A stretch of 64,000 nt of DNA from Raja brachyura (GCA_963514005.1 OY740805.1:18104001-18168000); one strand, 5' to 3'. Shown: positions 13,328-48,084, numbered from the stretch's first letter. A program made the numbers and translations. The notes: generated by a model not told the origin, from the letters alone.

Positions 13328-13401
13328 ATGATGAGATCCTGCTTTGATGTTGGTGAAGTTTGGCTCAGTTGCTGCTGTTGATGCGAGATGTTGTGCGCGA
13401 A

Positions 13402-13453
13402 ATGATTCTGTTCGTCTTGCTGAGTTTTATTTGTGTACTAGGGGCTCTAGCCG
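13402..13453 (+). CDS. MHC class I heavy chain exon 1 (signal peptide)
   Basis: MILFVLLSFICVLGALA followed by G|GTAAGT, a consensus phase-1 donor that joins in frame to the alpha1 exon (A-G-P-H-T-L). An in-frame upstream ATG is at 13381. Confidence 0.75.
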
Positions 13454-13825
13454 GTAAGTTAATGATTCTAATTTTATTCTCTACTGGCTAAAAGCGTCTT
13501 GACTTAATCTCAATCTGGACAGGAGGCGACTAAATTTAAAAATGCGCGTTAGTCTGAGGAACATGCAGACGTTAAAAAGGTTGCCTCCGAAAATGTCGGA
13601 TGGATTTTTCGCACGGTTGATGTATTGTAAATATTTATTACTTGAATAACGTCTATTTTGAAATTAAAAAAAAAAAAGTTGAAAAGGTTTAATCTCTCCT
13701 GTTTCAGTAAAATCCAGACTGATATTTCTGCTTTGATTTGCACCATGCCCCGTTTCCTTTGAGGAAGAAAGAACTGCAGATCTTGGTTTAAACTGATTTT
13801 AACTCGTGTAAAACAAACAAGGGCG

Positions 13826-14755
13826 AGGCCACTCACCAGGGTTTCCTCGATGCTCCGCTGTTGCTTCCCCCCCCCCCCTCCATTCCCCCCATTCGTATCA
13901 ATGACAAAGTCCCCCTTGTCCTCACCTTCCACCCCATTAGCCGTTGCACACAGCATATAATCCTCCATCATTTTTCCCACCTCCAACAGGATCCCAGTAC
14001 TGGCCACATCTTCCCATCTCCACCCCTTTCTGCTTTCCGTGGAGACCGTTCCCCTGAAATTCCCTGGTCAACTCGTCCTTTTCCACCCAAACTGCCCCCT
14101 CCCCAGGTACTTTCCCCAGCACCGGCAGGAAATGCAACACATGTCCCTTTCCCTCCCCCCTCGACTCCATCCAAGGACCCAAACAGTCTTTCCAGGTGAG
14201 GCAGAGGTTCACTTGCACCTCCTCCAACCTCATCTACTGTTTCCGCAGTTGCAGGTGGCAACCTCTCTCCATCAGCGAGGCCAAGCGCAGGCTCGGCAAT
14301 CATTTTGCTGAACTACTCTGCTCAGTCCATCTTAACCTACCTGATCTCCTGGTTGCTCAGCACTTCAATATCTCCTCCCATTCCCAATCTGACCTTTCTG
14401 TCCTGGGCCTCCTCCATTGTCAGAGTGAGGCGCAGTGCAAATTGGAGGAATAGCACCTCATATTTTGCTTGGGTAGTTTACAATCAAGCGGCATGAACAT
14501 TGACTTCTCCAGCTTTAAATAGCCCTTGCTTTCCCTCTCTATCCCCTCCCCTTTCCCAGTTCTCCCACCAGTCTTACTGTCGTTGCCTACATTCTATATT
14601 TGTCCCATCCACTCCCCTGACATCAGTCTGAAGAAGGGCCTCGACCCGATAGGTCGCCCATTCCTTCTCTCCAGAGATGCTGCCTGCCTGCTGAGTACTC
14701 CAGCATTTTGTGTCTACCTTCGAGTTAAACTAGCATCTGCAGTTCTTTCCTACAC
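13826..14755 (+). mobile_element. Penelope-like element 3' fragment
   Basis: VPLVLTFHP and decayed GIY-YIG NLIYCFRSCRWQPLSISEAKRRL, followed by the terminal repeat with CTGAAGAAGGG.. Confidence 0.85.
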
Positions 14756-14854
14756 AAAGTGCCTTGTTTGACAGGTTCAAGTTTATGGCCAAATGTCGGA
14801 AGAGAGAGAGGCATGAGTACAATGCAAAATCAGGAAAAGATTAGCACAGTCACT

Positions 14855-16805
14855 AAAGATTAGCAAAGTCAAATGTGGGTCCCTTGAAGGTTGGCACAGG
14901 TGAAATTAGTATGGGCAACAAGGAAATGGCAGAGGAGTTGAATAGGTACTTTGGATCAGTCTTCACTAAAGAAGACACAAACAATCTCCCAGATGTACTG
15001 GGGGACAGAGGGCCTAAGGGGGTAGAGGAATTGAAATACATGTTCATTAGGCGAGAAATAGTATTGGGTAGGCTAATGGGAATGAAGAATGATAAATCCC
15101 CTGGGCCTGATGGTCTGCATCCCAGGGTCCTCAGGGAGGAGGCTCTGGAAATAGTGGACGCGTTGGTGATCATTTTCCAATGTTCAAAAGATTCAGGATC
15201 AGCTCCTGTGGTTTGGAGGATAGCTAATGTTATCCCACTTTTCAAGAAAGGAGCGAGAGAGAAAACGGGGAATTACAGACCAGTTTGTCTGACTTCGGTG
15301 GTGGGAGGAATGCAGGAGTCAATTATTAAAGAGGTAATAATGGGGCATTTGGATAGCAGTAAAATGATTAGTCCAAGTCAACATGGATTTATGAAATGGA
15401 AATCATGCTTGACTAATCTTCTGGAATGTTCCACACACTGTGGATTTTGCTATTGACTGAGTGACAACTCTTAGCTCCAAACGTGCGGTCATCGTGTTTA
15501 CGTGGTAAGGTTCTGTGGCCAGGTTTGCAGTTGATGCTAAAATAGGTGGAGGGACAGGCAGTGTAGAGAAAGCAAGGACTTTGCAGAAGGACTTGTTCAG
15601 GTTAGCAGAGTGGGCAGAGAGGTGGCAGATGAAATTCAGTATAGCAAAGTGTGGAGTCATGCATTTTGGTAATACAAATAAAGGCGTAGATTATTTTACA
15701 AATGGAGGGAGAATCCAGAAATCTGAGGTGCACAGTGACATGGGTGTGTTGGTGCAGGATTCCCAAAAAGTTAATTTCCAAATTGAATCGGTAGTCAGGA
15801 AGGTGATTTATATCAAGAGGACTGGAATACAAAAACAGAGATGTCATTCTGAGGCTCCAAAAGGCCACATTTGGAGTACAGTGTGCAAATTTGGGCCCCC
15901 GATCCGAGGAAGGATGTGCTGGCTCTGGTTCAGAGGAGGTTAACAAGAATGATTCCATGAATGAGTGGGTTAGCATATGATGAGCGTTTGACAGCACTGG
16001 GCATCTACTCGCTGGAGTTGAGAATGTTCAGGGGGGAACCTCATTGAAATTTACAGAATAATGAAAAGCAAAGATAGAGTGGATGTGGAAAGGATGTTTC
16101 CACTGGTGGGTGAGTCTAGGACCAGAGGTCATAGCCTCAGAATTAAAGGGTGCTCTTTTAGAAAGGAGGTGAGGAGGAATTTCTTTAGTCAGAGGGTAGT
16201 TAATCTGTGGAACTCATTGCCACAGAGGGCAGTGGAAGCCACGGTGGTGGATATTTTTAAGGCAGAGATCGACACATTGTTGATTAGAACGGGTTATCAT
16301 TGGGAGAAGGCAGGAAAATGGGATTAGGAGGCACAGATCAGCCATAATCAAATGGTGGAGTAGACTCGATGGGCCGAATGGCCTAATTCTACTCCTGTAA
16401 CGTGAACGTGTACAGGTTGGGAGAGTGGGCAGAGAAGAGGCAGATGAAATTCAGTATAGCAAAGTGTGGAGACATGCATTTTGGTAATAAGAATAAAGGC
16501 ATAGACTATTTTACAAATGGAGATAGAATCCAGAAATCGGAGGAGCAAAGTGACTTGCGAGTGTTGGTGCAGGACTCCCAAAAGGTTAATTTGCAAATTG
16601 AACCGGTAGTCAGGAAGGTGATTTATATCACGAGGACTGGAATACAAACCCAGAAAATGCCAGCATGTCGCCAGATTTCAAAGAGTGTCAAAGGTCACAG
16701 AGAGATGACAGGAGAATGGCGTTGAAAGGGAACGATAGGTCAGCCATGATTAAATTGTGGAGTAAACTCGAAGGGCTGAACATCCAAATTCTGCACTTTA
16801 TGAAG
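14855..16805 (+). mobile_element. Decayed CR1 LINE fragments
   Basis: ORFs 14875-15456, 15515-15943 and 16061-16327 match the CR1 RT (KSPGPDGLHPRVL, NYRPVCLTSVV, FFSQRVVNLWNSLP). Confidence 0.9.
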
Positions 16806-18028
16806 CGAGTCAAAGTTCAGAACATGAGGGAGGGTCTTTTTATTTCTCCCCAGACTGGTGTGTCTGAAACCAAAATTCACAGTTTACAAATAAGGCTTCA
16901 GACATTCTTATGGCACCAAAACATGGTGACACTTGTGTATTGCCTAGGTTAGATCTGCTATATGATTTTACTGAGTTGTATACGGAACAAAACTTTTCAC
17001 TGTACCTAGGTGCCTGTGATAATAAAATACTATTGAATCATTGAATTCAGTGTAGTAAAGAGATTAAATTATTTCACCCAGAGGGGAATTAGTCTTTCAA
17101 ATTCTCTGTCCATGAAGGCTGTGGGCATTCAGTCAATCAGATGCTTGAGGCAGGGTTGGAAGATGCTTGGATACAAAAGGAAAAGGTTAGTTTGGAAAAA
17201 TGGTGGTCTGCTAGAGGATCATTATGATCTAATAGAATATCAGAGATTGGGGACAAAGGATGAATGGCACCACTTTACTTATGTTAGGTTTGTTCCCACT
17301 CCACAAGAGAGTCCAGAAGGAAAGAGAGTATAGAGTGTTCAATTGTCATATGTGCTGACTACAAATCAATGACATTCTCGTAGCAGCTGAGCAGAACTGT
17401 AAGACAATACAAATAAATAACATACTAAAAATTCAGCAAATTGATAGTCCCAATGCGTGCAAAAAACACCTTGAATGCTTAGTCTAACCAAAGACTGTCC
17501 ATAGGTCTACAGGGTCTGACTTGACACATCACCTATCCACTGTCACCAGCGATGCTGCCTGATCTGCTGAGTTACTCCAACACTTTGGCTTTATTTTGTT
17601 CATTATTCATAGTTGAGTGTACTGTAGTTCAGGGTTCAATATACGGGAAGATTTTAATGATCACATTCCAGCACACATCAAATGATCACATTCCAGCAGC
17701 ACACAAAAAATGACATTCTCCTTTGATGGTAATAATCTAAGTTGGTGAAAGGGGAAACAGACATAGATATAAAGAATAACATATTTAAAGCAGTTCCAAT
17801 GTAGGAAAATGCTTCAATGAGAATGCTTCAAGTAAGAATATTATTCTGTAACATTTTACTTCGAGCAGTATAATGACATTGCATGACAATTAGCAAAATA
17901 AACATTTAAGGTGCATCTTAAAGAAAAAAATAGAGGAAGGGATATATAGAGAGCAATTCTACGACTTAGGCCTACTCTTCAGATGAAGTACTTACATTTG
18001 TGAATAATCAGGATATTATACTGCCCGG

Positions 18029-18155
18029 GGGTTACACAAAAGGCTGGAGAAACTCAGCGGGTGCAGCAGCATCTAAGGAGTGAAGGAGATAGGCGACGTT
18101 TCGGGTCGAGACCCTTCTTCAGATTCTCCAGCATCTGCAGTTCCTTCTTTAACAC
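18029..18155 (+). mobile_element. Short Penelope-derived element with one arm missing
   Basis: 15-bp TSD TATTATACTGCCCGG at 18014-18028 and 18156-18170. Nearly identical to 2458-2681 but lacking the second arm. Confidence 0.85.
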
Positions 18156-21100
18156 TATTATACTGCCCGGTTCATCATGGGTACTGACCTCACCACCATT
18201 GAAGGGATCCACACGAGACGCTGTCTCAAAAAGGTAGCCAACATCATCACCCTGGCCACACTCTCATTACCTCCTACCATGGGGAAGAAAGTACATGTGC
18301 TTGAAAACCATAGCCACCAGGTTGAAGAATAGCTTCTTCCCAACAACTATCATGCAAATGAACACTACACAATGCTAACCTCAACTGTGAAATTCTATGG
18401 ACTGTCTTTGGTTGCACTAAGGACTTTCAGATTTTGTTTGCCCTAGTAGTGAGGTTAGTAATTGATTGATTTTGTTAGTTGTATTATGTATTTTCTATGT
18501 TTATTGTCTGTACAGACCTGTTATCATGCTCTGAGTAAAAATCTCATTGTTCCGTTTCTCGTTGTGTATATGTGTGTATATATAATTTGGTGCAGGGGGA
18601 AGATATATATATATATATATATGATAATTAAGCACTCAACTCTTGATTAAAACTGGAAGATGGTTTGCAATGCTGAGGAACAATGACGAGGGAAGAGCTG
18701 CGTAGGGAGGAACTGCAGATGCTGGTTTAAACCGAAGATAGACTCAAACAGCTGGAGTAACTCAGCGGGTCAGACAGCAACGCTGGAGAAAAGGAATAGG
18801 TGGCATTTCAGCTCGAGACCTTCTCTCCAGAGATGCTGCGTGTCCCACTGAGTTACTCCAGCATTTTGTGTCAATCTCTAAGTGCTGGAGTAACTCAGCT
18901 GGTCAGGCAGCATCTCCAGCAAACATGGATAGATGACGTTTAGGATCAACACCCTTCCACTGGGTGAAGAAGGGGTCTTGACCCGAAACATCTATCCATC
19001 ATCACATATCCATGTTCTCCAGGGATGCTGCCTTACCCACTAAGATGATCCAGCACTTTACGCATCTATCTTTGTGAACCAACATTTGTAGTTCCTTGTT
19101 TCTAGTGTAAATTGACTTTCATTTGTAGGTAAGTAATATGATCTGGAGAGATATGATGGGAATTTGCAGAGAATAAGAATGGGTTGGTCGAGAGCAAGAG
19201 TTTAATTGTCATCTGTACTGGCAATTGGACAATGAAATTCTCATGCACATATTGAATATAAGATAATCAATGACACAATAAATTAATATTAGTTATACTA
19301 GGTAACCAAACCATAACAGTGGAAAAACAAAACTTCCTTACTGCAAGCAAAATAAAGTCCATCACAGATCAGAGTTGTTGAGGTAAGGTTGTGGTTAGTG
19401 TTGTGCAGTGTTTAAAAGCCTGTTGCTCGTCAGAAAAAAACTGCTCTTAAACCTGGAGCTAACAGTTCTCAGGCTCTCTAACCTCAAAGGTAGTTCATTG
19501 TTTCAATGGTATTTTATTTGTGGCATGTACCAAGGTACAGTGACATTTATTTTTGTATACAGTTTAATACAGATATCACTATATATATATAAGCCCTTAG
19601 ATATATCTTAGATAAGCATCTCAGATGCAGTACGTGTCGCCAGTTATTTGTGCCATTTTCACATCCCAGTTGTTGTAAGTGAGGGTTCTTGGCCTGACCA
19701 TGAGCCCCACTGTCCTGGTGTTGTTCCAGGGTCGGCCTGGCCAAGCGAAGCTGTGGTGTCCTCTACTGCTGCAGGGAGTAACTGGTCCATGCGCCCGGCC
19801 TCTTGGAGCGGCGCCTGGAACAGCCAAGCCCCAGGCTGCTGTAGGGCCTCCAGCGCCCACTCCACTGTTGAGGCAGTGCATTCCCTCATGCAGCCAGTCT
19901 GTCTATCAGCCATCCATCTGACTCCTTCCACTCTGGGCCGACGAGTTGAGCCTTCCAGATGGTTCCTCCATCCTTGGTCCACAGCGACCAAGAACTCGGT
20001 CCATGATGGATGGGCCCGATCTTCCGGGCGAATTCCCGGTCCAGGGTGGCCGGCCCTGAGAGTATGGCCAGGGTGGTGTGGGTCTCTGATGACATTAGCT
20101 GTCTTTCTGAGGCAGCACCTCCTGTAGATCCATTAAATGATGGAATGGAATGGTATGGAATTTGTGCTTCATGGTCAGTGGACTCTGGCGGCTGATGAGT
20201 CTTTTTGTGTGTCTCTGTGACTATATGTGTGGAGAATGCTTTGAAAGTAAGAGTAGGTGAAGGGGCATTCCAAATGATGGGATGCACATGTCATTGTAAA
20301 TGGGGCCCTCAAAGTATTGATCTTTAAAATGCTAAATCCTTCTATCCGGGGATGCTGCCTGTTCCACTGCGTTACTCCAGCATTTTGTCTCGATCTTTGG
20401 TGTAAACCAGCATCTGCAATGCCTTCCTACACAGGCAAAAGAAGGTTTCCAACAATGGATTCTGTTTGTATGGAGTTTATATGTTCTTCCTGTGACCGCT
20501 CGGGTTTCCTCTGGGTGCTCCGGTTTCCTCCCGCGTTCCAACAACGTGTGGGTTTGTAGGTTTATTGGCCTCTGTAAATTGCCCTGAGTGTGTAGGATGT
20601 GAAACAGGGAAAACATAGAACTAGTGTATGGGTGATTGATGGTCAGTGCAGACTCAGTGGGCAGAAAGGCCTGTTTCCATGCTGCATCTGTTAAAAAAGA
20701 TTGGTGAGCATGATACCCGAATTCAAACGTCACGGAAAAACCAACACATTTTAGTTTGTTCAGACAAGAACACCCAATAATGTTTTTATTCAAAGAGAAC
20801 AACAAAGTACTAAAGGTTTGCAGGTACAAAGTCCAACAGTGAGCATTGCTTAATCTAATGTTATACTTTGAACATTGTAGCAGTAGGGCATTCAGCACAG
20901 GGAGGCTGTCCCATTGAGGGGGGACGAGGACAAAGGGGGAACTGTGGGGGTGGGAGTGCCACCAAGAATGAAGGGGGAACTGGTGGGGATGTGGTCTGCT
21001 GCCATGTGTGACAACAGGCAGTGGATAGGACTGTTCGGTACTTTTGTAACTTTGTCTGTACCAACACATGGCGACACTTTTGTACTGCCTAGGTTCAGTT

Positions 21101-22041
21101 TGGTTTATTGTCACGTGTACCGAGGTACAGTGAAAAGCTTTTTGTTGCATGCTAACCAGTCAGTAGAAATACAATACATGATTACAATCAATGCATTTGC
21201 AGTGTAGAGACGCATGATAAGGGAATAATGTTTAGTGCAAAGTGAAGCCTGCAAAGTCCAGTCTAGGATAGACCGAGGTTGTATGGAAAACAAAGCATTT
21301 CACTATACCCAGGTACCCTGGGTACATGTCACAATGGAGTATCATTCATTCTTTCCTTCATTCATCGATCCTATTCCTCCCACCATATGTTCCATAAAAC
21401 ACAGTCACTCATGGCTGTCAATGCTCCTTTGATTTGTTTTTTCCATTAACCTGTGTTGAGCTGGTTAATGGGTTTTGTGAAATGCAGCACAGTGGTGCAA
21501 TGGTAGAGAGCTGCTGCCTCATCGTGCCAGAGACCTAGGTTCAATCCTGACCTCGGGTCTGTCTGTGTGGAGTTGCACGTTTTCGCCGTGACCGCTGTGG
21601 TTCCTCTGGGTGCTCTGGTTTTATGCCACACCGCAAAGGCATGCAAGTTTGTAGGTTAATTTGCCTATGTAAATTGCCCCTAGTGTAATGAGTGGATGAG
21701 AATGTGGAATAACTAGAGTGAATGGGAGATCAATGGTCAGCATGGACTCTGTGGGCTGAAGGGCCCTGAAGGAGACCCGGGTTCGATCCCGATGTCTGTA
21801 TGGAGTTCAAACGTTCTACCCTTGACCTGCGTGGGTTTTCTCTGAGATCTTTGGTTTCCTGCCACATTCCAAAGACGTGCAGGTTTGTAGGTTAATTGGC
21901 TTGGTAAATGTAAAAAATGTCCCAGGTGCGCGTTAATGTGCAGGGATCACTGGTCAGCACGGACCTGGTGGGCCAAAGGGCCTGTTTCCGCGCTGTATCT
22001 CGAAACATAGCCATGTTGAACATTGTTGAAAAGGATAGTAA

Positions 22042-22372
22042 AAGCCTTGTCCCACTGTACGAGTACATTCGAAGAGTTCTCCCGAGTTTGCCCTGATTCG
22101 AACTCAGAGATTTACGGTAATGGCCACTCGTCGGTACTCGGGGCTCTCGTGGACATTTTTCAACATGTTGAAAAATCTTCATGAGTCTTCCCGAGCTTAC
22201 CTGCCATTAGCAAGTCTTCCCGAGTACCTGCCGTTAGCGTTACGATCCGCTAAGAGACGTCCCCGAGCTCCGACATACCCACTACATTCATTCTCCGTGC
22301 TTCCCACGAGTTAGATTTTTTTTTAAACTCGGAAGAGCTCTTGAATGAACGCGCATCGTGGGACAGGGCCCA
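22042..22372. mobile_element. PIF/Harbinger-type MITE, family A
   Basis: TIRs TGTCCCACTGTAC / GTGGGACAGGGCC, flanked by TAA and TTA. Interior is the reverse complement of 5300-5616. Confidence 0.75.
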
Positions 22373-25220
22373 TTAATTCATTAATGCTCGCAAGAATAGT
22401 AATGTTAAAATTGACTTTAGTAAAATACAGAAAACACTTTGCAATATGCAGTAGGTCATATGTGGGAATAAAAGCAGAGCTAATGTTTCAGGCCAGAGGC
22501 CCTTCAGTACCGGGAATGAGTAGAAAGAAGAATTGAGGAACTGAAGATGCTAGTTAACAAAAAAAGACACAGTGTTGGAATAGCTCAGTGGGACGGGCAG
22601 CATTACTGGAGAATGTGGGATGGTGATGATTCTGGTTGGGGCCATTCTTCAGACTGATTGTGAGGGTAAATAAAGCTGGAAGCGAGGAGGGGCAGGACAA
22701 AGTGTGGCAGATGATAGATGATAGATACCGACATTATCGCCTCCTCACCTATGTTCACCTATTACCTGCCCCTCCTCTAAAGAAGGGATTCGGCCTGAAA
22801 CATTACCTATTGTCTTCGCTCCATAGATGCTGCCTCATCCGCTGAGTTTCTCCAGCACTTTTGTCTAACTCCTCTCATCCAGATTCCTTCATCGCCTCCT
22901 CCCCATCCACACTGCCCATACCAACCTCCTATAATTAGTCTGAAGAAGGATCCTTTTCCACAACAACTCATATCCATGTTCTCCAGTGATACTGCCTGAC
23001 CTGTCCAGTTGTCCCAGCACTTTGTTTATTTTTCTAGGAGAAAAAAGAAGCATGTTAAGTTGCAGGAAGTGTGGGGGAGGGAGAATGTCTTTCAAAGATA
23101 AACACAGAAAGTTGGAATAACTCAGCGGGACATGCAGCATATCTGGAGAGAAGGAATGGGTGACATTTCAGGTCGAGGCTCTTTTCCAGCCTTTCGAAGC
23201 ATTATCTGGTAGAATTTAATGAGATAGACATCTGTTCGTGGTCAAATGCGTTATCTGAAAGCTGAATGTAAATTGCACTGTTAAGGCTTTACAATACGTA
23301 ATTGGTTAAAATGTGCAAGGAATTAACATATGGGCTTAATTGTCCTCGTGTTTTGAAGGGAAGCTCACAGCATGTCTCAATTGCATGTCAACCTAGTATC
23401 ATAAAAATGACTGCTGCAGGAATTCAGGTGGTGGTGGAACACCTTTGTAAGAAGGAACTGCTGATGCAGGAACTGAAGATAGACACAAAATGCTGGAGAA
23501 ACTCAGTGGGTCAAGCAGCATTTCTGACAAAAAGAAATCGGTGACGTTACAGGTTGAGACCCTTCCTCACATCTTCAACAGTCAAGAGTGTTTTATTGTC
23601 ACATGTCCCAGAGAGGACAATGAGATTCTTCCTTGCTGCACATCAGAATGGAATGAAATTTGGAGGGAATTAAATTTTTCACAATGATTTTTAACTGGTA
23701 CAGTAAGTCACTTCTATTATTCATAAACCATTTGCTGGGGTATGTAGTAATATTTTAAATGACATAAGACCAAGCCTGCATGAGAAGTCATCTTGTGATA
23801 CAGTTTAGGATTTGGCAGGAAATGCTAAAAATATGGTTCGGCACGGTGGTGCAGCGGCAGAGCTGCTGCCTCACAGCACAAGGACATGGGTTCAATCCTG
23901 ACTACGGTTTCTGTCGGTTCATACGGTTTTTACGAACTTCCCATCCCATGACCGGCGCGGGTTTCCTCCGGGTGCTCCGGTTTCCTCCCACACGCCAATG
24001 ACATACCAATTACGTTAGTAAAATTCTAAATTGTCCCAAGTGTGTGCATAGAATAGTGATAGTGTGCAGGGATCGCTGGTCGGCATGGAATCGGTGGGCT
24101 GAAGGACCTGTTTCTGCACTGTATCTCTAAATCAAAATAAATTCCCAGAAAGCATGGAAAATGTTAAGCTTAAGGAGAGGAAATCTGAATTCACGTTCTG
24201 GACCGTCATCATTTAATTTGGCAACTAAAATGTCGCAACTCTATTTACCTCCACAGATGCTGTTGGACCATTTCCAACATGTTATATTTCTGTGTCAAGT
24301 TTATAGCACCACAACATTATTTTACATTATTTTCTACTGAAAACGGAAAGGTTATTTGGTAGTTTTTGTAATGTAATCATACCCTAGAACATGGGTCTTT
24401 TGCTGATTAATATTGAGAGTCGAGTCCAGCAATACAATCCTCAGGACTCGAGCAATTGTTCTCTTGACCTGTTGTGGATTTATCAGAGAGAACAGTAAGG
24501 ATGTGTATGAGTGCAGTTATGCCTGCTGAAGTATGTACATTTTTGAGAAGGGAGGGAAAATGGGAGATAAAGATTAATCACCAGTTCAGAAGACATTTAA
24601 CAAGGTTACACTTAAAGCGTTTGTAAACATTTGTGAGGTAGGATCAGGTTATTTTACTGGAAGGTAATTTTCCCCGAGTAAATGTGGGTGATGGGAAAAT
24701 TGAGAGGCGAGGGAAGTTAATGGGAATGTGAGATTTACATGGAAACAAAGAAACATGGAAAATACTGTAGGTGCAGGAAGAGGCCATTCGGCCCTTCGAA
24801 CCAGCCTGTTTCTGCTCTGTATCTGTAAACTAAACTATTAACGTCTGTATCTATGCAATATGATCATGGCTGATCATCCAAAATCAGTACCTCGTTCCTG
24901 CTTTTCCCACCATATCATTTGATTCCAATAGCTAAGAGCTAAATCTAACTCTTAGTCTTGTCTTGAAAACATCCAGTGAATTAGTCTCCACTGCCTTCGG
25001 TGGCAGAGAATACCACAGATTCACAACTATCTGGTTGAAAAGTTCTTCCTCATCTCAGTTCTAAATTGCCTACCGCTTAGTTTTAAACTGACCCCTGGTT
25101 CTGGACTCCCGCAACATTTGGAACAGTTTTGTGTGGGATTAGTGCTTGACCGCTCGCACAGACACAAGTTTCCGTGTTCGATGACTTTATTTTCATCAGT
25201 ATTTTGATACAGACGTTAAT

Positions 25221-32169: not shown

Positions 32170-32430
32170 GGCCTCACACACTGATCTATTACTACACCCT
32201 GAACCACGGGAATACTCATCTACCAGAATATAGTGTGGTGGGTGTTCTGGACGGTTGTGAGATACAGTATCATGACAAAAACATGGCCATTACAGTTCCA
32301 AGACAGAAATGGATGGCGGCTGCATTTGACAGGAGTTACTGGGTAAGAAATACGGTTTTCACAACTGGTTTCCATGGAATCATCAAAGGGGAAGTCGCCG
32401 AATGGATGCGGAGGCATAGCAAAACAACAG
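32170..32430 (+). CDS. MHC class I heavy chain exon 2 (alpha1 domain)
   Basis: 261-nt open exon bounded by ctag| and |gttagt, phase 1/1. GPHTLIYYYT..PEYSVVGVLDG..VPRQKWM..DRSYWVRNT matches class I alpha1 (H3, Y7, G26, D29, P47-R48, W51, Y59-W60, T64). Confidence 0.93.
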
Positions 32431-33731
32431 GTTAGTTCATTCATTTGAATAAAGTTGGATTGTGATCAATGTAAATGAAAAAATCTCTCAGAAATACCGC
32501 GCTGTGCCAGAGATCCAGGTTAGATCCTGACCTCAAGCCAGTTGGCACGTTCACCCTGTGACCACACATATTTCCTCCGGGTGCTCCATTTTTGTCCTAT
32601 ATCGTGCAAACGTGCAGGTTTGTTGTTAATTGGGCACTGTAAATTGCTCTTGTTGTGCAGAGATTGGGTGAGAGTGTGGATAACATACTGTAGATGTGTA
32701 GGAATGAACTGCAGATGCTGGTTTACAGCATAGACACAAAATGCTGGAGTAACTCAGCGGGACAGGCAGCATCTCTGGATAGAAGACTCTGCATACCTTG
32801 GGTATTCATTATGAACACATATTCATCTATTCATGATTCATGATTAATTACTTTTTAAGACATTGCTTTTTGTTACCTCTTTGGTTACACATTAAACAAA
32901 TTATATTGAAACCATAACTCTGGACAGGATAAGGTGTGTACAATACATCAAAATATTATGCACTGGGCATAATTTCTATCAATTTTCCATACCTTGCAAT
33001 ATTTATTATTATTTTCAAATTGCATGTGAATTAATGTGAATAAGACATTTATTGGATTATCGTCAGATTGATTGAACCATGTTTATCGAATCATATTGCC
33101 TTAAAAAATATGATGTTTTATTTGCATTAATCATGGTGCGCATATTATCTGCAACATTGTTATGTTTATGAGATTTATGAGCATATTGCCGGGGCTCAAG
33201 GGTGTGAACAAGAGTGAGAGATTGGGCAAGCCAGGGCTTTATTCCATGGAGCACAGTAGGCTAAGGGGTGATCATATAGGGGTGCTTAAAATCATGAGGG
33301 GAATTGATAGAGTGTATGCGCGGAGCCTTTTACCCAGAGAAGGGGAATAAAATACCAGAGGACATGGGTTTAATGTGAGAGAGGGAAGATTTGATTGGAA
33401 CCTGGGGGGCAATCTTTGTGCTCAGATAGTGGTAAGTATATGGAATGAGCTGCCAGAGAATGGAGTTGAGGCAGGTACAATGACAATATTTAAAAGACAC
33501 TTGGACAGGGCATGGGAAAGGTTTCGAATGATACAGTATCTACTCTTTGCAGGGTAAATAGGACTAGCTTAGATGGGGTATCTAGATTAGCATGAACAAG
33601 TTGAGCCAAAGGGCTTGTTTCCATGCTGTGCGACTCTCTCTATGACTGCTTTTGTAGCAAAGAGCCCTGCTGCCTCACAGCTCCAGTGATCCGGGTTCAA
33701 TCATCTCCAGTGCAGCCTGTGTGGAGTATAA

Positions 33732-37607: not shown

Positions 37608-38233
37608 GAATTGAATTGAATTGAATTGAATTCCTTTATTGTCATTCAGACCTTTCGGTCTGAACGAAATTACGTGCCTGCAGTCATACATATATAAAAA
37701 TAACAATACCGTACAATAAACACAAAATTAACATCCACCACAGTGAGTTCACCAAACCTCCTCACTGTGGTGGAAGGCAAAAGTCTTAGGGTCACTGTCT
37801 TTCTCCCCTCCTTATTCTCCCTCTGCGCTGAGGAGATCCCGGCCTCCGCCACCGCTGACGCCGGAACACCGCCACAGGCCCGCTGCTGGAACACCGCCAC
37901 AGGGCCCGCCGCTGGAACACCGCCACAGGGCCCGCCGCTGGAACCCCGCCACAGGGCCCGCCGCTGGAACACCGCCACAGGGCCCGCCGCTGGAACACCG
38001 CCCCAGGGCCCGCCGTTGGAACACCGCCCCAGGGCCCGCCGCTGGAACACCGCCACAGGGCCCGCCGCCGGAACGTCGCTGGAGCACCGCAGCTCCCGAG
38101 ACCCAGGTCGCCGCTGGAGCACCGCAGCTCAGAGGGAACCAGGCCGCCGCTGGAGCACCGCAGCTCTCGAATCCCAGGCCGCCGCTGGAGCACCGCAGCT
38201 CTCGAATCCCAGGCCGCCGCTGGAGCACCGCAG
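37608..38233 (-). mobile_element. VNTR-containing non-coding retroelement with (TTCAA)n tail
   Basis: 12-bp TSD GAATGTTTTCCT at 37596-37607 and 38234-38245. The minus strand ends TGACAATAAAGGAA(TTCAA)n. Confidence 0.8.
37858..38232. repeat. GC-rich compound minisatellite (26-bp then 35-bp units)
   Basis: About 8 copies of GCCGCTGGAACACCGCCACAGGGCCC, then about 4.5 copies of GCCGCTGGAGCACCGCAGCTCTCGAATCCCAGGCC. Confidence 0.95.
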
Positions 38234-38897: not shown

Positions 38898-40240
38898 TAG
38901 TCAGCAACTTTGGTCAGCAGAGATTTTAAGTTTCAACCCAGTTCGCCTGACCTCCATTTTCCCTTCACAGAACCATTTTACAGTGTTGATTCAAGATTTA
39001 CATTCACATTCTCACCGTGATCTGTGTGGGTTTTCCCCGCTATCTTCAGTTTCCACACACGCTCCAAAGGCGTACAGGTTTGTAGGTTAATTGGCTCGGT
39101 ATAAATGTAAATAGTCCCCAGTGCGTGTAGGATATTGTTAATGTGTTGGGATCACTGGTTGGTGCAGACTCCGTGGGCTGAAGGGCCTGTTTCTGCACTG
39201 TATCTCTAAACTAAACTAAATCAAACTTGCACTAAGGAGGTTCCCAAAGAGTTCAGCCATCCAATAACTCAGCCTAATAAGGTGGAACGAGGAACTGCTT
39301 GGTCTACTGAAAATGCATAGAGGTTTGGAGAGAGTTGCCATAATCACTGATGGAAACATTTCAGCGCACAATACTAATGACAACAGGGTAGCGTGGTGGC
39401 ACAGCGGTGGAGCTGCTGCTTCACAGCTCCAGAGACCTGGGTTCGATCCTGACTCCGGGTGCTGTCAGTACGGAGTTTGTACATTTTCGCTGTGAATGTG
39501 AGGGTTTTCTCTGGGTGCTGCAGTTTCCTCCAACACTCCAAAGACACACATGTTTGTAGGTTAATTGGCTTCGGTAAAAATTGTAGATTGTACCTCGTAT
39601 GTAGGATTGTGCTGATGTACAGAGATTGCTGGTCAATGTGGGTACAGTGGGCTGAAGGGCCTGTTTTCATGCTTTATCTCTAACCTATACGAAATAATTG
39701 TCCTTGTAACAAATATGAGCTTATTTCACACCTGGGGCATAGATCCAGGGTTTCTTTCCTTTCATCTTAATTCCAGGTTCTCTGATAGGAAGAGCCATCC
39801 ATAAGATAGGATCAGGTTGGGATTCTGCAGTGGTGTTTCTGGCACAGGCATAATTCTTCCAACTTTTGTAAACATATTGCTGCCTCAAAGTGCCATAGAC
39901 CAAGGTACAAGCCTGCTGTCTGTATGGAGGTTGTACTTTTTCCCCGTGACCGCATGAGGTTTCTCAGAGATCTTGGTTTCCTCCCACACTTGAAAGACAT
40001 ACAGGTTTGTAGGCTAATTGGCTTTATATAAATATAAATTGTCCCTAGTGTGTGTGGGATAATGTTAATGTGCGGGTATCACTGGTCAGTGCGGACTGGC
40101 TGGGCCGAAGTGCCTGTTTCCATGCTTCCATTGTCCACGTCATGCTCCTCGTCCTTCCATTTTCCTCTTTGGGAAGCGGGAGCAAAGTAGAAGGGGTAAC
40201 ACAGCTCCCTCTCACTATGTGGAGATGCTACCAGACCCTT

Positions 40241-40775
40241 GGTCCGGTACCCGGACGTGGCACTGACGGACGAGAAGCTGAAGCAAAGACGTCGAAGCCA
40301 AAGAACCAAATAGAAATGAGGCCGAAACGCCAATAAACCGAATGAGGACGAAGACGAAACCCCTACTAACCGAAAGGATGGGACGCCTAAACACAAAGTA
40401 ACCAAAAGGGTGGGACGCCTAAAAGCCAACGAGCCGAAAAGCTGCATCGCCAAAAGCAAACTTACCGAATGGCTGCTCTGTCGAAACACCACCTATCCGA
40501 AAGGCGGCATCACCTCCAAGCTAAAGGACCGACTACCGCTCAACAGATCAGTCCAATAACGGTCTTGACGTTGCCGGGGGCGGGACTTGTCAGCGATTGG
40601 TCCAGACCCCCGCGTCCATCACATCACTGTGAACGGATGAACATTGTCCCACATCTCGGCTCCATCCGACCCGCAGCCCACAGAGTGTGGTCGTGGGAGA
40701 GTGGGGGCTGAACCGAGGGGTGCGCACCTTCGGCCGCTTTCAACTTGGTGCTTGGGTTCGGATTACCCAGTCACC
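40241..40775. repeat. CpG-rich element with a 16-bp-phased CCGAA array (probable DNA transposon end)
   Basis: Fifteen CCGAA-like pentamers between 40278 and 40501, mostly at 16-bp spacing. Inverted TTCGG motifs occur near 40729-40761. Confidence 0.55.
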
Positions 40776-41702
40776 TATGGCTTGTGTGGGGAAAATGAAC
40801 CCCACGCTCCCGTCTCCCCTCTTCTCTCTCTCCCCCTTCTCTCTCCCCCCTCTGTCTTCCCCCTCTCTCTCACCTGGTCTTGGATCAAAAACTTGTACTG
40901 AAGTCCCCACATTCTGTCCACACCTTGTTAATCTGTTGCTGCCACGTTTTTATTTCACTATTGGCCATGACCCGAGTATACCCGGGGGTGGCAACTGAAC
41001 AGATTAATCAGGAACAGTTTCCTAGGAAACGGCAAGCAGATGGACCTAAAGATCGTAGCCTGTGTATTATCCAGAGATGCTGCCCGACCGGCTGAGTTAC
41101 CCCAACACTTTGTGTCTTTCTTAATTTTAGGAAGGAACTGCGGATGCTGATTGAAACCGAAGATTAACACAAAAAGCTGGAGTCACTCAGTGGGTCAGGC
41201 AGCAAGTCTGGAGAAAGGGAATAGGTGATGTTTCTGGTTGAGACCTCCTTCACACCTGCCACCAAAATGTCACATTCCTTTTCACCTGAGATGCTGAGTG
41301 ACTCCAGCTTCTGGTGTCTATCTTGTGTCCTTCTTAAATTGTGTTGACTTCATGCATGTGGCAATCAGGTGGTTTATATTATTGGCAGAAAATCCCATTG
41401 AAAGTAGGAAGTATTCTGCATTATAAGCACAGGTGGAATGGATATGCACATGTTACAATGTCCTGGTACATTGTCCTGTTACCGTGACTCCCATTACTTA
41501 TGTATGAGTTATTTAATCACCAGTTCCAGTGTGAAGAAGGATGAGAATGGCAAAGGAATGGAAGCTTGCATAACCAAAAAGGTGATAAACTTAACTAGAA
41601 AGAAACAAAAAGAAAGTGCATGTAAGGATCAGGAGGATGGAATCAGGCAGGAGCTATGAGGAATGTAAAGAAAGGAGGGAATAACTCGAGTGGGTGAGTA
41701 GA

Positions 41703-41970
41703 GGGTGGCACAGTGGCACAGCTGGAGAGTTGCTGCCTTGCAGCACCTGCAGCGTTGGAGACCCGCCTTTGATCCTGACTACGGGTGCTGCCTGTAAGGA
41801 GTTTGTACGCTCTCCCCATGACTACGTGGGTTTTCTCCGAGATCTTCGGTTTCCTCCCGCACTCCAAAGACGTACAGGTATGTAGGTAAATCGGCTTAGA
41901 ATAAATGTAAATTGTCCCTAGTGTGGGCTGAAGGGCCTGTTTCTGCGCTGTATCTCTAAAGCTTAAAACT
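41703..41970 (+). mobile_element. HE1-type SINE
   Basis: Head, V-domain and tail present, with a short internal deletion near the 3' end. Confidence 0.88.
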
Positions 41971-42269
41971 AAAGGGGCCAATAGAGGCTACAAAGTGGCT
42001 TTGGCGAGTCGGATTACAGAAAATCCCACATATTTTTCAAGGTTTCAAGGTCAGTTTATTGTCACATGTACCAATTAAGGTTCAACGAAATTCAGATTAC
42101 AATACAGTCACACTTAAAAAAAAAGCAAAGGCCGCCAACACCTCGATGTTAGGCCCCAGTGTGGCCGGAGATACGATACCAAAAAAAACAGCTTCTACAT
42201 CGAGGTAAGAGATTAGAAAAAGTTTCCTCCATCCCCCAACCCCCACCCAAAACAAGCTATGAACACTAA

Positions 42270-42592
42270 TGGGCCTGTCCCACTTAGGCGATTTTTCAGG
42301 CAACTGCAGGTGACTAGTTTATTTCCACATGCTCGCCGGTGGTCGCCGGGGGTAGTCTCAGTCACGGAAAACGTTGTAGTGTCTTTCTGCTCACCGCTAA
42401 ATTTTGAACGTTGAAAATTTTACAGCGACAGTGGGTTTGACTCCATTGAGCAGAGCTTAACTTCTCCTGACATAGGTGCTGTCGTAGGTTGTCGCCAGGA
42501 TGACGTAGGTTGTTACTGCTTTTTCGTCGACCTGCTACAGCTATGACAGTTGCCGGCAGTTGCCTAAAAAATCACCAAGTGGGACAGGCCCA
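42270..42592. mobile_element. PIF/Harbinger-type MITE, family C
   Basis: TIR TGGGCCTGTCCCACTTAGGCGATTTTTCAGGCAACTGC / GCAGTTGCCTAAAAAATCACCAAGTGGGACAGGCCCA, flanked by TAA and TGA. Confidence 0.8.
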
Positions 42593-42829
42593 TGAAGACA
42601 TACATTCAATACATACAAAACCGACACAAAGAAGGAAGGGACAGGCAGAGTTTTGGCGAGGCATCCATTGCACCAAAACACGAGGGAGAAGGTGGGATTG
42701 CTTAAAGATGTAGCGGCGAATATGTGCTTGGTGTTTTTGGACGGAGGCGAGGTACGAAACAAATACTTTGCATTTGGTTTCACCAAGAAAGACATGGAGA
42801 AAAGTAAGGACTTTTAATAGTAAGTACAG

Positions 42830-43622
42830 CATGTAATCCTCCAACATTTTCACCACCTGCAACAGGATCTGACTACTGGCCACATCTTCCCATCTCCACC
42901 ACTTTCTGCTTTCCGCAGAGATCGTTCCCTCCGAAACTCCCTGGTCAACTCGTCCCTTCGCACCCGAACGACCCACTCCCCCGATACTTTCTCCTGCATC
43001 CGCAGGAAATGCAACACCCGTTCCTTTACCTCCCCCCTCGACTACATCCATGAACCCAAAGTCTTTCCAGGTGAGGCAGAGGTTCACTTGCTCCTCCCCC
43101 AACCTCATCTACTGTATCTGCTGTTTCAGTTGTCAACTTCTCTACATCAGCGAGACCAAGCGCAGGCTCGGCGAACGTTTTGCTGAACACCTCCACTCAG
43201 TCCGTCTTATCCTACCTGATCTCCCAGTGGCTCAGCACTTGAACTCCCCCTCCCATTCCCAATCTGACCTTTCTGTCCTGGGCCTCCTCGATTGTCAGAG
43301 TGAGGCCCAGCACAAATTGGAGGAACAGCACCTCGTATTTCGCTTGGGCAGTCTACACTTCAGCGTTATGAACATTGACTTCTATAACTTTCGATAGCCC
43401 TCCATTTATCTCTCCATCCCCTCCCCCTTTGCAATTCTCCCACCAGTCTTACTGTCACCGCCTACATTCTATCTTTGTCCCTCCCCTGACATCAGTCTGA
43501 AGAAGGGTCTCGACCCAAAATAACGCCCATTCCTTCTCTCCAGAGAAGCTGCCTGACCTGCTGAGTTACTCCAGCATTTAGTGTCTACCTTCGATTTTAA
43601 CATCTGCAGTTCTTTCTTACAC
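42830..43622 (+). mobile_element. Penelope-like element 3' fragment (GIY-YIG endonuclease plus terminal repeat)
   Basis: ORF 43050-43397: NLIYCICCFSCQLLYISETKRRLGERFAEHL..EEQHLVFRLGSL. Confidence 0.9.
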
Positions 43623-43744
43623 ATGGAGAATCAATGTGGAGAATGTTAACATGCAGGGGCACTTTGAAGTTAAGTAAGAAGGAGATGTGGGGTCACTTCA
43701 AGAGAAATGTGGGTAAATCCCCAGGATAGAGGGGTGTAGTGGAT

Positions 43745-44190
43745 GATAATAATAATACTAATCGTTGATAACATTAGTGCCATGCTGGTTTCTGACGGGC
43801 ACGATGACGGATGCAACACACATCTCTGTCCTCTATTCAGCTGGCAAGCTCCTCTTTTGTCTCTGCAGATGGGTCTTCCATAAACATCTTCAGCATCGTC
43901 TTGATTGGTCGTCCCGGGTCGAGTCTTACATGGGTGGGTTCCCACAGCACAACTTTGTTTGCTGGCATTTCTGGGTGGCGGTGGCAGTGACCTGCGAGCC
44001 TCATCCTTCTCAACGTGATCTTCTCGGCCAGAGGTGGAGTCTCCCCATGGAGCTGGGCATTGGTGATGTGGTTTTGAACTATTCTGAGCATTCGGGTGTA
44101 GGTACCATCGAGAGACGGACAGTGCTGGAGTGAGAGTCCATGCCTCACACCCGTACAATAATATGGTCTCTACAGTTGCACGGAAGGCCA
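43745..44190 (-). mobile_element. RTE-clade LINE 3' fragment
   Basis: FRATVETILLYGCEAWTL, LDGTYTRMLR and RMRLAGHCHRHPE..VVLWEP..GRP, with an (ATT)n-like tail. Sits inside a CR1 remnant. Confidence 0.8.
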
Positions 44191-44330
44191 AATATTCAGG
44201 GTGTAGTTCAGTGACAAGTAGAGTTCTGCAGGGGTCTGTGCTGTGAACCTTGCTACTTGTGACATATATAAATGACTTGGACCCTGGTGTCATAACAATT
44301 AATCAAATAATGATTTTGTCTTTCTTTCAG

Positions 44331-44606
44331 ATTATCACTATATTCAAGGACAGTTTGGTTGTGAGGTGAACGATCACAGTCCCAATGTAGGGATATTGAA
44401 GTTGGCTTATGATGGAAGATATGCATTTAGTTTTGATAAGAACACACTAAAGTGGACAGTGCATGATCCAGTAGCTGAGCCCTTCAAAGAGAAATGGGAC
44501 AAGAATGTAAAAATGAACCGTTATTTCAAGAGCTTGTTAGAAAATGACTGTGTGGAACGATGGCATACATACTATGCAATTGGAAAGACATACCTGACCA
44601 GGGAAG
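44331..44606 (+). CDS. MHC class I heavy chain exon 3 (alpha2 domain)
   Basis: 276-nt open exon bounded by tttctttcag| and |gtgagt, phase 1/1. DYHYIQGQFGCE..LAYDG..FDKNTLKW..KEKWD..LENDCVE..TYY with the C101-C164 pair. Confidence 0.95.
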
Positions 44607-44919
44607 GTGAGTTCAGAACAAAGGATGTTGTTTTTTGATCGTGGGCGATGAGTAATATTTCACTCTGAGGCAATGAGTAATATTATCTCTGACCCAATCA
44701 TGACAGAGGGAAAGGTAATTCGGCCCATTTAGTCTATGCTAGTTTTCAATGCAATGTCGACGAACTGCTCAACAGCTCTCTCTCACAACTTGCACTCAGC
44801 TTCCTCGGATTCTCCATTCATTCAGCTCCACTTCAGATAATTTGCAATGTCCAACTAACTTACCGGCACGTCCTTGGTACATGGGACAAAACTGGAGCAC
44901 GTGGAGGAAGCCAACTGAT

Positions 44920-45408
44920 GCATAAGGTCATAAGTGATGTGTGCAGCATTAGAACATTCGGCCCATCAAGTCTACTCCGCCATTCAATCATGGCTGATCT
45001 ATCTCTCCCTCCTAACCCCATTCTCCTGCCTTCTCCCCATAACCCCTAACATGCATAATAATCAAGAATCCATCTATGCCTTAAAAAATATCCATTGACG
45101 GATTCCAAAGCCTTCTGTGGCAAATAATTCTACAGAATCACCACCCTCTGACAAAATAAATTCCACCTCATCTCTTTCCTAAAGGAATGTCCTTTAATAT
45201 TGAGACAATGACCTCTAGTCGTAGACTCTCCCACCAGTGGAGACATTCTCTCCACATCCACTCTATCCAACCCTTTCACTGTTTGATATGATTCAATGAG
45301 GTCCCCCCTTATTCTTCTAAATTCCAGCGAGTACAGGTTCTCTGCCATCAAATGCTCATCATATGTTAACCCATTCATTCCTGGGATCATTCTTGTACAC
45401 CTCTTTTA
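44920..45408 (-). mobile_element. CR1 LINE 3' fragment in MHC intron 3
   Basis: ORF 45130-45390 reads LYSLEFRRIRGDLIESYQTVKGLDRVD. Confidence 0.85.
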
Positions 45409-45559
45409 AACCACGTGGTTGGTTGATGGTGACGAAAGAGGTAAAATGGGGCAGATGTGGACAGTAACTTGGTTGTTGTAGTAAACTGAAGAATATTTTG
45501 TGGTGGGTGACTGTGCAAGTATTACTGAAGTTGAAAATAACCAACTTACTGCCTTGTAG

Positions 45560-45826
45560 TTTCCCCTGAGGTCACTCTCGCTGCCCGCCCTGATGATCAT
45601 TCAGTCCTGTACTGCACTGTGTTTGGATTTTACCCACCGGCCATCAATGTCAGCTGGTTGCAGAATGGTCAACATGTCTCTGAGACCAAATCTTCTGGGA
45701 TCATACCCAACAACGATGGAACATATCATCTAAAGTCTGTCCTTGAGTATGATCCGTATGATGGGAAACAGTATTCCTGTCATGTCGATCACAGCAGCCT
45801 GCCCGGTGGGAAGACCATCATCTGGG
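45560..45826 (+). CDS. MHC class I heavy chain exon 4 (alpha3, Ig C1-set domain)
   Basis: 267-nt open exon bounded by ttgtag| and |gtaaga. VSPEV..LYCTVFGFYPPAINVSWLQNG..IPNNDGTYHL..YSCHVDHSSL..IW. Confidence 0.95.
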
Positions 45827-46134
45827 GTAAGAACGTTAAATATTCTTTCATAGATCATCATTATCGTCTGTTGTTTCCATTTTAATCATTGTGACTACAT
45901 CCCATATTCCAAAATGCGTAAACTTTCTTTGTTCAATGCTGTTGCTCTAAGTAATCACGTAATCAGCACCCACTCTCCACTTGAGCAGAAGACTTTGTCA
46001 ACAGAAAATTTATCAAAATAAATAAATAACTAATATACAAGGAAGGAGTATTTGGGTTTCTCAGTGGTGGAACTGAAATCCCAGAAATGTATGTTTAAAT
46101 AAAAAATGAATCTTTCCTCATGATGTGATTAACA

Positions 46135-46850
46135 GCAAGGCACTGGGGGAGTACATGCCCCAATCCGAATCAATGGTCCGAAGTGGAAATGATTGAGAGC
46201 TTCATGTTCCTTGGCATGAATATATACAATAATCTGTCATGGACTGACCACATAGCCAAGGAGGCACACCGACACCTCTACTTCCTCAGGAGACTGAGAA
46301 CATTCATAATGTCTCTGGCGACTCTAGCAAACATCTATAGATGCCGCTAGAGAAAGCATGTTGTTGGGTTGCATCACATCTTGATTTGGGAACTGCACTG
46401 CCTAAGACTGCAAGAATATACAAAGAGTTAAAGATCGTCACACAAGCCAGACTTCCCACTATTGAGTCAATCTACACCAGGTTGCCTTGGTCCACCCTGG
46501 TCATTCCTCCTTCCTGCTCCCATCACACAATTGGTATAGGAAGTTGAAAATATGCACTGCCAGGCTCGGGAACACCCCCTTTCCATCTGTTATCAGGCTT
46601 CGGAAGGGTCCTTCCATAATGTAGGTTTAATGCCCGATTCACCTCAACCTCATTGCACATTGAACATTGTCTATGGAACGGATGCGTTACAATGTTGAGA
46701 ACTATATTCTGTACTCTGTATCCTCCTCTTTGCTCTATCTATTATTTTGTATTTGTATTTATGTATAGTCTTATCTAATTTCTTTGGATAGCATACAAAC
46801 ACCACCTTTTCACTGTGTCTTGAAACATCTGGCATTAATAAAACTAAACC
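46135..46850 (+). mobile_element. Rex1/Babar-like LINE 3' fragment
   Basis: Homologous to 8565-9315 (INGPKWK..ESFMFLG..HLYFLRRLR) with a TAAAC-like tail. Confidence 0.7.
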
Positions 46851-47320
46851 TAATGAAGTAAGTTCAGTGACACAAGTTACAGCTTCTGCAACGAACAATA
46901 TAACTGCCTGACAAACAGTGATCATAACAGATTGATTCAATGTATGCTGCACTAACCTACACAAATGCTCACTTTTGAAGATTCCATCGAACAATGCACA
47001 ACTAAGCAATCTGATGTTTCACTCTGAAGACTGTTGACATACTCCAAAACTTAATTTCCAACCTATCTATGTATCATCAGCAATCTAGGCTACAGCACCA
47101 TCAGTCCCTTCATCTGCTCTTAATGCCAACGATAAGTAGTTCACTTTCTTGCATTGATTCCCAACTTGCAGATGCAGTTTCGCAACCTGAACACTCCTTT
47201 AAGACAACTCTCTGCTTGCTCTTAATTGTTTTTCCATTCATGCTAATTATTACCCCCAGTGTCATAAGCCATGTGCCTTTGCATCAATTGATCAGATATC
47301 TTATGAAATTCCAGATATTC

Positions 47321-47340
47321 TGGCGACATCTGGTGGTCGG
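47321..47340 (-). promoter_or_regulatory. Candidate CTCF site
   Basis: The minus strand reads CCGACCACCAGATGTCGCCA, close to the CCACCAG(G/A)(G/T)GGCGC core. Confidence 0.45.
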
Positions 47341-47976
47341 GCCACTTATTGCTAGAACCCTCGTCAGGGGAGCTGGGTCTATCACGTGACAGGGTTTTCG
47401 TGGGAGTTGGTGATGAGTTCATCGCCAGTCAACTGGTGTGCCTGATTGCAACGGCAGGAACTTTGCTCGTTCTTAAAAAACGCACGTGTGTGCAAAAACT
47501 GTATTTCTTTAAAAAACATTGATTTGTTCACAACGTTTGGATCTCCACAATATCTTGTATTTCTTTTGTTTCCCATTCCAATGTTGTTACCTATTCTGCT
47601 TTTCCATCATATTATTTTAGAATTGTAGGCTGTGCACACCTGCAAACTACTGCTGCTTGAATATACATTATCTACGGGTTCCGGTAGCATTTTCAAAGAC
47701 TTCTAATCAATTTCTCAAACAAAGTTTGAAGAAGGGTCCCAAAACGAAACGTCCCCTGTCCATGTGTAAGGATCAACTGCAAATGCTGGTTTACACTGAA
47801 GATGGACACAAATTGCTGGAATAACTCAGCTGGTCAGGCAGTATCTCTGGAGAAAAGGATGAGGTGGCATTTCGGGTCGAGACCCTTCTTCATCCTGAAG
47901 TCCTCAGACAGTGCCAATCTATTTAGCTGCACAGCTTAACAATTGATTTGTAAAGTTATGCATTCTTATTTTTCAG

Positions 47977-48084
47977 AAGGAAATAGGAGGAAAGACAGGC
48001 ACATCGGCCTTATTGCCGTGTGTGTGCTGATATTGCTGGCTATTGTCTTGGCAGTAATTGTTTGGTGGAGAAAAAAGAGGAGAG
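47977..48084 (+). CDS. MHC class I heavy chain exon 5 (connecting peptide and transmembrane)
   Basis: 108-nt exon bounded by ttttcag| and |gtaaga, phase 1/1. EGNRRKDRH-IGLIAVCVLILLAIVLAVIVWW-RKKRR is a hydrophobic span with a basic stop-transfer. Confidence 0.9.

What the first reader, a model, noticed from the sequence alone, without database searches (positions are those of the whole stretch)
13402..48084. Intact non-classical MHC class I gene with a remodelled, hydrophobic groove
Seen: five open exons splice in phase 1 into a complete leader-alpha1-alpha2-alpha3-TM chain. By-eye alignment to HLA numbering keeps Y7, Y59, R84, K146, W147 and Y171. It replaces T143 with F, Y159 with L, W167 with R and F/Y123 with A. 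Groove-facing positions are mostly bulky and apolar (Y9, F66, F70, I73, I74, W81, F99, L114, L116, F143, M152, F156, L159). Established: loss of these peptide-anchoring residues marks class Ib molecules, and cartilaginous fish have several such lineages besides classical UAA. Inference: the groove may be occluded or bind a lipid or metabolite rather than diverse peptides. The lineage cannot be assigned here and could be known or new.
Basis: partly seen in the sequence, partly recalled or inferred. Interest (0 to 1): 0.75.

Follow-up and report, generated by a model that had tools for sequence, protein, structure and literature searches.

The report
Divergent skate copy of MHC UGA
This is an intact skate copy of UGA, an already known shark-and-ray immune gene family that likely displays lipids rather than peptides; this copy lacks a sugar-attachment site and a predicted sorting signal that its relatives keep, so it may be a specialised or a decaying duplicate.

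Summary
Its alpha1 and alpha2 hit PDB 9CH4, 'shark nonclassical MHC class I, UGA', far above all else, and it sits among skate UGA at 100/100. The hydrophobic groove (G97, F99, L114, F143, F156, L159) is family-wide, and UGA is already reported as CD1-like and lipid-binding (PMC12562908, on personal communication). What is particular: this copy differs from all 34 aligned relatives at H36, F66, T67, S86 (N-glycan site lost) and R167, and its tail lacks the tyrosine motif kept in 14 of 14 skate tails. Public contigs show a window-identical alpha1 end joined to alpha2, beside two more typical copies, and S86 copies in a second organism. So skate UGA is multicopy with a derived branch. Specialisation versus relaxed decay is undecided. 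Verdict: new variant of a known kind, modest interest.

The parts
13381..13401 (+). possible upstream in-frame start, 7 more leader residues
   Evidence: matches the N-termini of Amblyraja and Leucoraja gene models, tblastn E 4e-7 and 3e-7; which ATG is used is untested
13402..13453 (+). exon 1, leader peptide
   Evidence: ATG to GT donor, phase 1; aligns with skate UGA leaders
32170..32430 (+). exon 2, alpha1 domain; carries the copy-specific H36, F66, T67, E77, A79, S86, K87
   Evidence: contigs
44331..44606 (+). exon 3, alpha2 domain; G97, F99, L114, L116, A123, F143, F156, L159 and copy-specific R167
45560..45826 (+). exon 4, alpha3 C1-set Ig domain; holds the only N-glycan sequon of the chain
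47977..48084 (+). exon 5, connecting peptide, transmembrane helix and basic stop-transfer
52642..52682 (+). exon 6, cytoplasmic tail and stop; Asp in place of the Tyr of the family's YxxI motif
   Evidence: junction not seen in reads

Best explanation
This is an intact six-exon skate gene of the elasmobranch non-classical class I lineage UGA, whose product likely pairs with beta2-microglobulin and likely holds a lipid in its hydrophobic groove for display to T cells; it is one derived copy of a multicopy skate UGA family. Shown: exon structure, UGA membership, family-wide apolar groove, copy-specific changes, and a spliced alpha1-alpha2 junction of this type in a public run. Inferred: lipid ligand (from the report on shark UGA), beta2m pairing and T-cell display (from class I biology). 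Predicted for this copy: F66, T67, E77 and R167 would alter the groove mouth and its charge; loss of the N86 glycan would weaken lectin-chaperone and tapasin handling and lower surface levels; loss of the tail tyrosine would remove adaptor-mediated endosomal sorting, so it would sample lipids at the surface or in early compartments.
For: Alpha1 and alpha2 hit 9ch4_A at E 1e-33 and 1e-34; next best 1.5e-10 (nurse shark classical, 6lup) and 6e-15. 9CH4 is titled 'shark nonclassical MHC CLASS I, UGA', and the stretches shown match by eye the nurse shark UGA sequence in Supplemental File 10 of PMC10751288; its little skate UGA matches P0033 and kin. Tree of 43 rows: window in a skate set, a batoid set and a 22-row elasmobranch set, each 100/100, apart from UAA-, UBA-, UCA- and UDA-like rows. 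Among 34 relatives: F99, L114, F156, L159, W147 34 of 34; G97, W81, Y9 33; M152, I74 32; F143 27; no T143, Y159 or W167. PMC12562908 (passage): UFA and UGA are CD1-like; crystal structure and mass spectrometry suggest lipids. Run X5 contig 31 covers 32305-32434 with one difference and runs on into the first letters of alpha2. Tail YxxPhi in 24 of 34 rows, 14 of 14 skate rows with a tail exon. Roles of the tail motif and of N86 from PMC2194227 and PMC6859791 (passages).
Against: Lipid binding rests on a review citing a personal communication; the primary paper was not found and the ligand in 9CH4 could not be seen. Six classical anchor residues (Y7, Y59, R84, K146, W147, Y171) are kept, unlike CD1. 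No groove volume was measured; the model made was of the Rhinoraja orthologue P0001 and only moderate (pLDDT 70.9, pTM 0.50). The tail Asp and R167 were seen only in the window and may be private alleles or assembly errors. H36 is Y in all laid contigs of three of the four runs. Runs X5 and X12 are not on record as RNA; a retrocopy would give the same junction. The same copy-specific changes fit loss of constraint.
Confidence: 0.62

Rival explanations
1. A UGA duplicate under relaxed constraint: still open and spliced but drifting toward a pseudogene, as in birth-and-death evolution of class Ib genes.
For: It breaks several family-invariant sites at once (N86 34 of 34, aromatic 36 in 33 of 33, tail tyrosine). 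UGA is multicopy in skates (10 Rhinoraja models; three alpha1 types in run X2). Eight of eight differences from the nearest other copy are non-synonymous, which neutrality gives with P 0.14 on exon sites alone. N86 loss lowers surface expression of HLA-A2 (PMC6859791).
Against: No stop, frameshift or bad splice site in six exons; alpha3 is 91-94% identical to skate relatives while alpha1 is 78-86%; S86, F66, T67 recur in a second organism (X4, X12); no difference in the 30 adjoining intron bases (P about 0.01 if counted, a post hoc test).
Confidence: 0.25
2. A non-classical molecule that binds a small set of hydrophobic or lipidated peptides, or works empty as a receptor ligand, rather than a CD1-like lipid carrier.
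For: Y7, Y59, K146, W147 and Y171 are kept in 31, 33, 33, 34 and 32 of 34 relatives. Fold neighbours after 9CH4 (ZAG, HFE, chicken CD1-1, BF2, MR1, YF1) are tied within about 1 Z unit and do not pick a ligand class.
Against: T143, Y159 and W167 are absent in all 34 relatives; the review reports lipids comparable to CD1d ligands for UFA and UGA.
Confidence: 0.11
3. A classical UAA allele, or a new, unnamed class I lineage.
For: Only the class I domain layout and six retained anchors.
Against: all place it in UGA; 83-87% identity to Rhinoraja models.
Confidence: 0.02

Closest known systems
Elasmobranch MHC class Ib lineage UGA (nurse shark UGA, PDB 9CH4; little skate UGA in PMC10751288 Supplemental File 10)
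   Same: Same clade at 100/100; same apolar groove set and G97; six-exon layout; 78-94% identity per domain to skate members, 51-70% to shark members.
   Different: H36, F66, T67, A79, S86, K87, D91, R167 are found in none of 34 relatives; N86 sequon and tail tyrosine motif lost; described as single- or low-copy but multicopy in skates.
CD1 (tetrapods)
   Same: Works-like only: hydrophobic groove, reported lipid binding of UGA, tail YxxPhi motif in typical UGA.
   Different: Orthology untested (no CD1 row in the tree); UGA keeps several peptide-anchor residues; this copy lacks the tyrosine motif, as CD1a does (recalled; PMC2194227 passages only contrast CD1a and CD1b routes).
UFA, the other CD1-like elasmobranch lineage
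   Same: Same MHC class Ib cluster and reported lipid binding.
   Different: By eye the labelled UFA alpha1 and alpha2 are unlike this protein; not in the tree.
Classical UAA and the UBA, UCA, UDA lineages
   Same: Class I fold and exon phases.
   Different: Separate clades; UAA and UDA keep T143, Y159, W167 in the supplement alignment.

Membership tests
UGA | Groups with named UGA sequences | tested here: met
   100/100 with P0033 and kin, which match the labelled little skate UGA by eye; best PDB hit is shark UGA
UGA | Lineage groove residues (Y9, F70, I73, I74, W81, G97, F99, L114, F143, M152, F156, L159) | tested here: met
   all 12 present in the window; 27-34 of 34 relatives each; list derived here, not from a published definition
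UGA | N86 sequon and tail YxxPhi as in other members | tested here: not met
   S86 against N in 34 of 34; tail Asp against Tyr in 14 of 14 skate tails; family habits, not published criteria
UGA | Single or low copy number | tested here: inconclusive
   one copy in the window; no genome held; 10 Rhinoraja models, 3 Pristis, three alpha1 types in X2
UGA | Located in the MHC class Ib cluster | tested here: inconclusive
   GPR139-like neighbour; such genes lie beside class Ib genes on the sawfish MHC map but are a large family
UGA | Binds lipids | not testable with these tools
   reported for shark UFA/UGA in PMC12562908
Classical UAA | Full set of peptide-end anchors (Y7, Y59, R84, T143, K146, W147, Y159, W167, Y171) | tested here: not met
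   6 of 9 kept; F143, L159, R167
Classical UAA | Groups with UAA | tested here: not met
   UAA row P0110 is a Triakis MHC class I antigen, called UAA by likeness
Classical UAA | High allelic polymorphism, ubiquitous expression | not testable with these tools
   alleles and paralogues cannot be told apart in contigs
UDA | Groups with UDA and keeps T143, Y159, W167 | tested here: not met
   UDA-like rows labelled by eye
CD1 | Orthology with tetrapod CD1 | not tested
   no CD1 sequence was available as a stored protein for the tree
CD1 | Deep hydrophobic A' and F' pockets | not testable with these tools

The most novel reading that the evidence does not exclude
Skates have expanded the lipid-presenting UGA gene and split it into two trafficking classes: a typical form with N86 glycan and tail tyrosine motif that surveys endosomes, and a positively selected form, this gene, with a recharged groove mouth, no alpha1 glycan and no sorting motif that samples surface lipids, an independent parallel to the CD1b/d versus CD1a division in mammals.
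Probability: 0.2. Interest if true: 0.6.

Novelty: new variant of a known kind. Interest (0 to 1): 0.32.

Why it matters
The lineage, its structure and its proposed lipid ligand are known, so the gene itself adds little. If the derived copy is functional, skates offer a natural pair of near-identical lipid-presenting molecules that differ in groove mouth, glycan and tail, which would make it testable whether division of labour among lipid-presenting molecules arose independently in cartilaginous fish.

Tried and rejected
No whole genome is held, so copy number and MHC linkage in this organism were not tested. A search for short alpha1 fragments found no candidate. The window's own protein was not among the hits. 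Paper searches for the primary 9CH4/UGA paper found none; the UDA and UEA papers are not held, and their supplements, unseen, may already describe skate UGA copies. The word searches of the supplement for our accession and GPR139 symbol gave nothing. Earlier findings of this scan: none. First splice attempt used a wrong TM acceptor and gave a false frameshift, corrected. Positive selection: not significant on exon sites alone (P 0.14-0.17); the P of 0.01 with intron bases is post hoc and on about 110 bases. The fold search ranks 9CH4 first (Z 21.7, rmsd 6.1, 252 aligned) but the rest are tied and do not show a ligand class. Rejected: classical UAA, UDA, UFA, a new lineage, a frameshifted pseudogene, a second class I copy in the window. 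No complex prediction was run.

Full report
Observation. Scanning for open phase-1 exons found alpha1 at 32170-32430, alpha2 at 44331-44606 and alpha3 at 45560-45826; the leader (13402-13453) and transmembrane exon (47977-48084) were read from the sequence. tblastn with relatives added a tail exon at 52642-52682 and an in-frame ATG at 13381. The six exons have AG/GT ends and give 334 residues and one final stop; introns are 18.7, 11.9, 1.0, 2.2 and 4.6 kb. A profile of 34 relatives, without the window, scores the four main exons at 49-186 bits against at most 9.8 in 10 shuffled windows; leader and tail are too short to pass that test alone.

Identity. Alpha1 and alpha2 each hit PDB chain 9ch4_A at E about 1e-33, more than 19 orders above the next hit. 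A model of the Rhinoraja orthologue P0001 (pLDDT 70.9) retrieved the same entry first, titled 'Crystal structure of shark nonclassical MHC CLASS I, UGA', released March 2026. Supplemental File 10 of PMC10751288 labels nurse shark and little skate UGA; by eye the first equals the 9CH4 stretches and the second equals P0033 and kin. Orthologues were found in skates, sawfish, stingrays, mobulids and eight shark genera. In a 43-row maximum-likelihood tree (window, 21 family rows, 21 outgroups picked from the 150 hits) the window lies in skate, batoid and elasmobranch UGA sets, each 100/100, apart from UAA-, UBA-, UCA- and UDA-like rows. Outgroup labels are by-eye likeness to the supplement; UFA, UEA and CD1 were not in the tree.

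The groove. The family alignment used 34 of the 51 proteins then stored (isoforms, GPCR fusions and GPCR-only members left out); the rows are not independent (10 are Rhinoraja). F99, L114, F156, L159 and W147 are in 34 of 34; Y9, W81, G97, Y59 and K146 in 33; I74, M152 and Y171 in 32; Y7 in 31; F70 and I73 in 28; F143 in 27; position 167 is L (31) or Y (3), never W. So the apolar groove is a lineage trait held in sharks and rays. G97 and A123 argue for a cavity rather than a filled groove (inference; which positions face the groove is recalled from HLA-A2). [quoted passage not shown] I found no primary paper. Typical UGA tails carry YxxI/V (24 of 34 rows; the other ten lack a tail model or end otherwise), the kind of motif that sorts CD1d to endosomes (PMC2194227, passages).

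What is particular to this copy. H36, F66, T67, A79, S86, K87, D91 and R167 occur in none of the 34 rows, E77 in one; the N86 sequon (34 of 34) is gone, leaving one sequon in alpha3; the tail has Asp for Tyr, against 14 of 14 skate tails. Alpha1 is 78-86% identical to skate rows, alpha3 91-94%. Four public runs (two samples, two coded organisms) were laid on alpha1 (codons read). Run X2 holds three 3' types: one identical to the window over 32329-32460, one differing at 8 bases, all non-synonymous and all toward the family consensus (S66, E67, Q77, D79, N86, E87, N91), and one more distant. Run X5, same sample, covers the exon but not its flanks; its contig 31 matches the window through the exon end and continues with the first letters of alpha2, so this type is spliced, as are the others. 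In the second organism, 177 of 192 units of summed contig depth at codon 86 read Ser (X4), and one 899-base contig of X12 (depth 5) keeps H36, F66, T67 and S86 with Q77, D79 and E87. Eight of eight non-synonymous changes is not significant on exon sites (P 0.14) and reaches 0.01 only if 30 identical intron bases are counted, post hoc.

Mechanism. Most likely (0.62) a beta2m-associated, lipid-holding UGA molecule, a derived but expressed member of a skate expansion (10 Rhinoraja models). Predicted consequences: changed groove mouth and charge; weaker tapasin-pathway handling and lower surface level without the N86 glycan, as for HLA-A2 (PMC6859791, passages); no tyrosine-based endosomal sorting. 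Rivals: a duplicate in early decay (0.25), a peptide-binding or empty class Ib molecule (0.11), classical or new lineage (0.02).

Setting. A GPR139-like gene ends at 63260 on the minus strand; on the sawfish MHC map a run of such genes lies between class Ib genes (supplement part 18), which fits but does not prove MHC linkage.

Verdict. Observation confirmed, interpretation right but already known at lineage level. The residual novelty is a skate UGA expansion with a branch that lost the alpha1 glycan and probably the tail motif; I did not find it in the searches named above, but two key papers and their supplements could not be read. New variant of a known kind; interest 0.32; boldest reading (CD1a-like split of UGA in skates) probability 0.2, interest 0.6.

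Noticed in passing
window 63260-64000, minus strand: Open 246-residue end of a rhodopsin-family GPCR, 55% identical to a little skate GPR139-like protein; convergent with the UGA gene. In little skate, gene models fuse UGA exons with such a GPCR (P0002, P0028), probably annotation of read-through.
   Followed up: partly
P0073 (Leucoraja XP_055486430.1): Divergent class I protein on a contig of the same length as little skate UGA P0033, with the next accession; sister to the UGA clade at 100/97 on a long branch; by eye matches none of the labelled lineages in the supplement (UEA was not among them). Possibly an unnamed UGA-sister lineage.
   Followed up: partly
P0135, P0111 (Callorhinchus milii): The holocephalan sequence labelled UGA in the supplement (P0135 by eye) did not join the elasmobranch UGA clade in the tree; its placement is unsupported.
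   Followed up: no
P0001, P0018-P0026: Ten near-identical Rhinoraja longicauda UGA models on a contig of one length, none named as an isoform: a recent expansion of a gene described as single or low copy. All keep N86.
   Followed up: partly
window 45827-45882: Alpha3 reads on into the intron for 18 codons to a stop; models P0020 and P0033 end this way. Could give a secreted form or be an annotation artefact.
   Followed up: no
window 32168, runs X5 and X12: Loose 5' ends before alpha1 in two contigs do not match the window's leader exon; alternative 5' exons or contig artefacts.
   Followed up: no
window 37859-38233: GC-rich tandem arrays (26-mer x 8.3, 35-mer x 4.5) in intron 2; LINE-like reverse transcriptase fragments elsewhere (for example 14857-15940, 60067-60324).
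   Followed up: no
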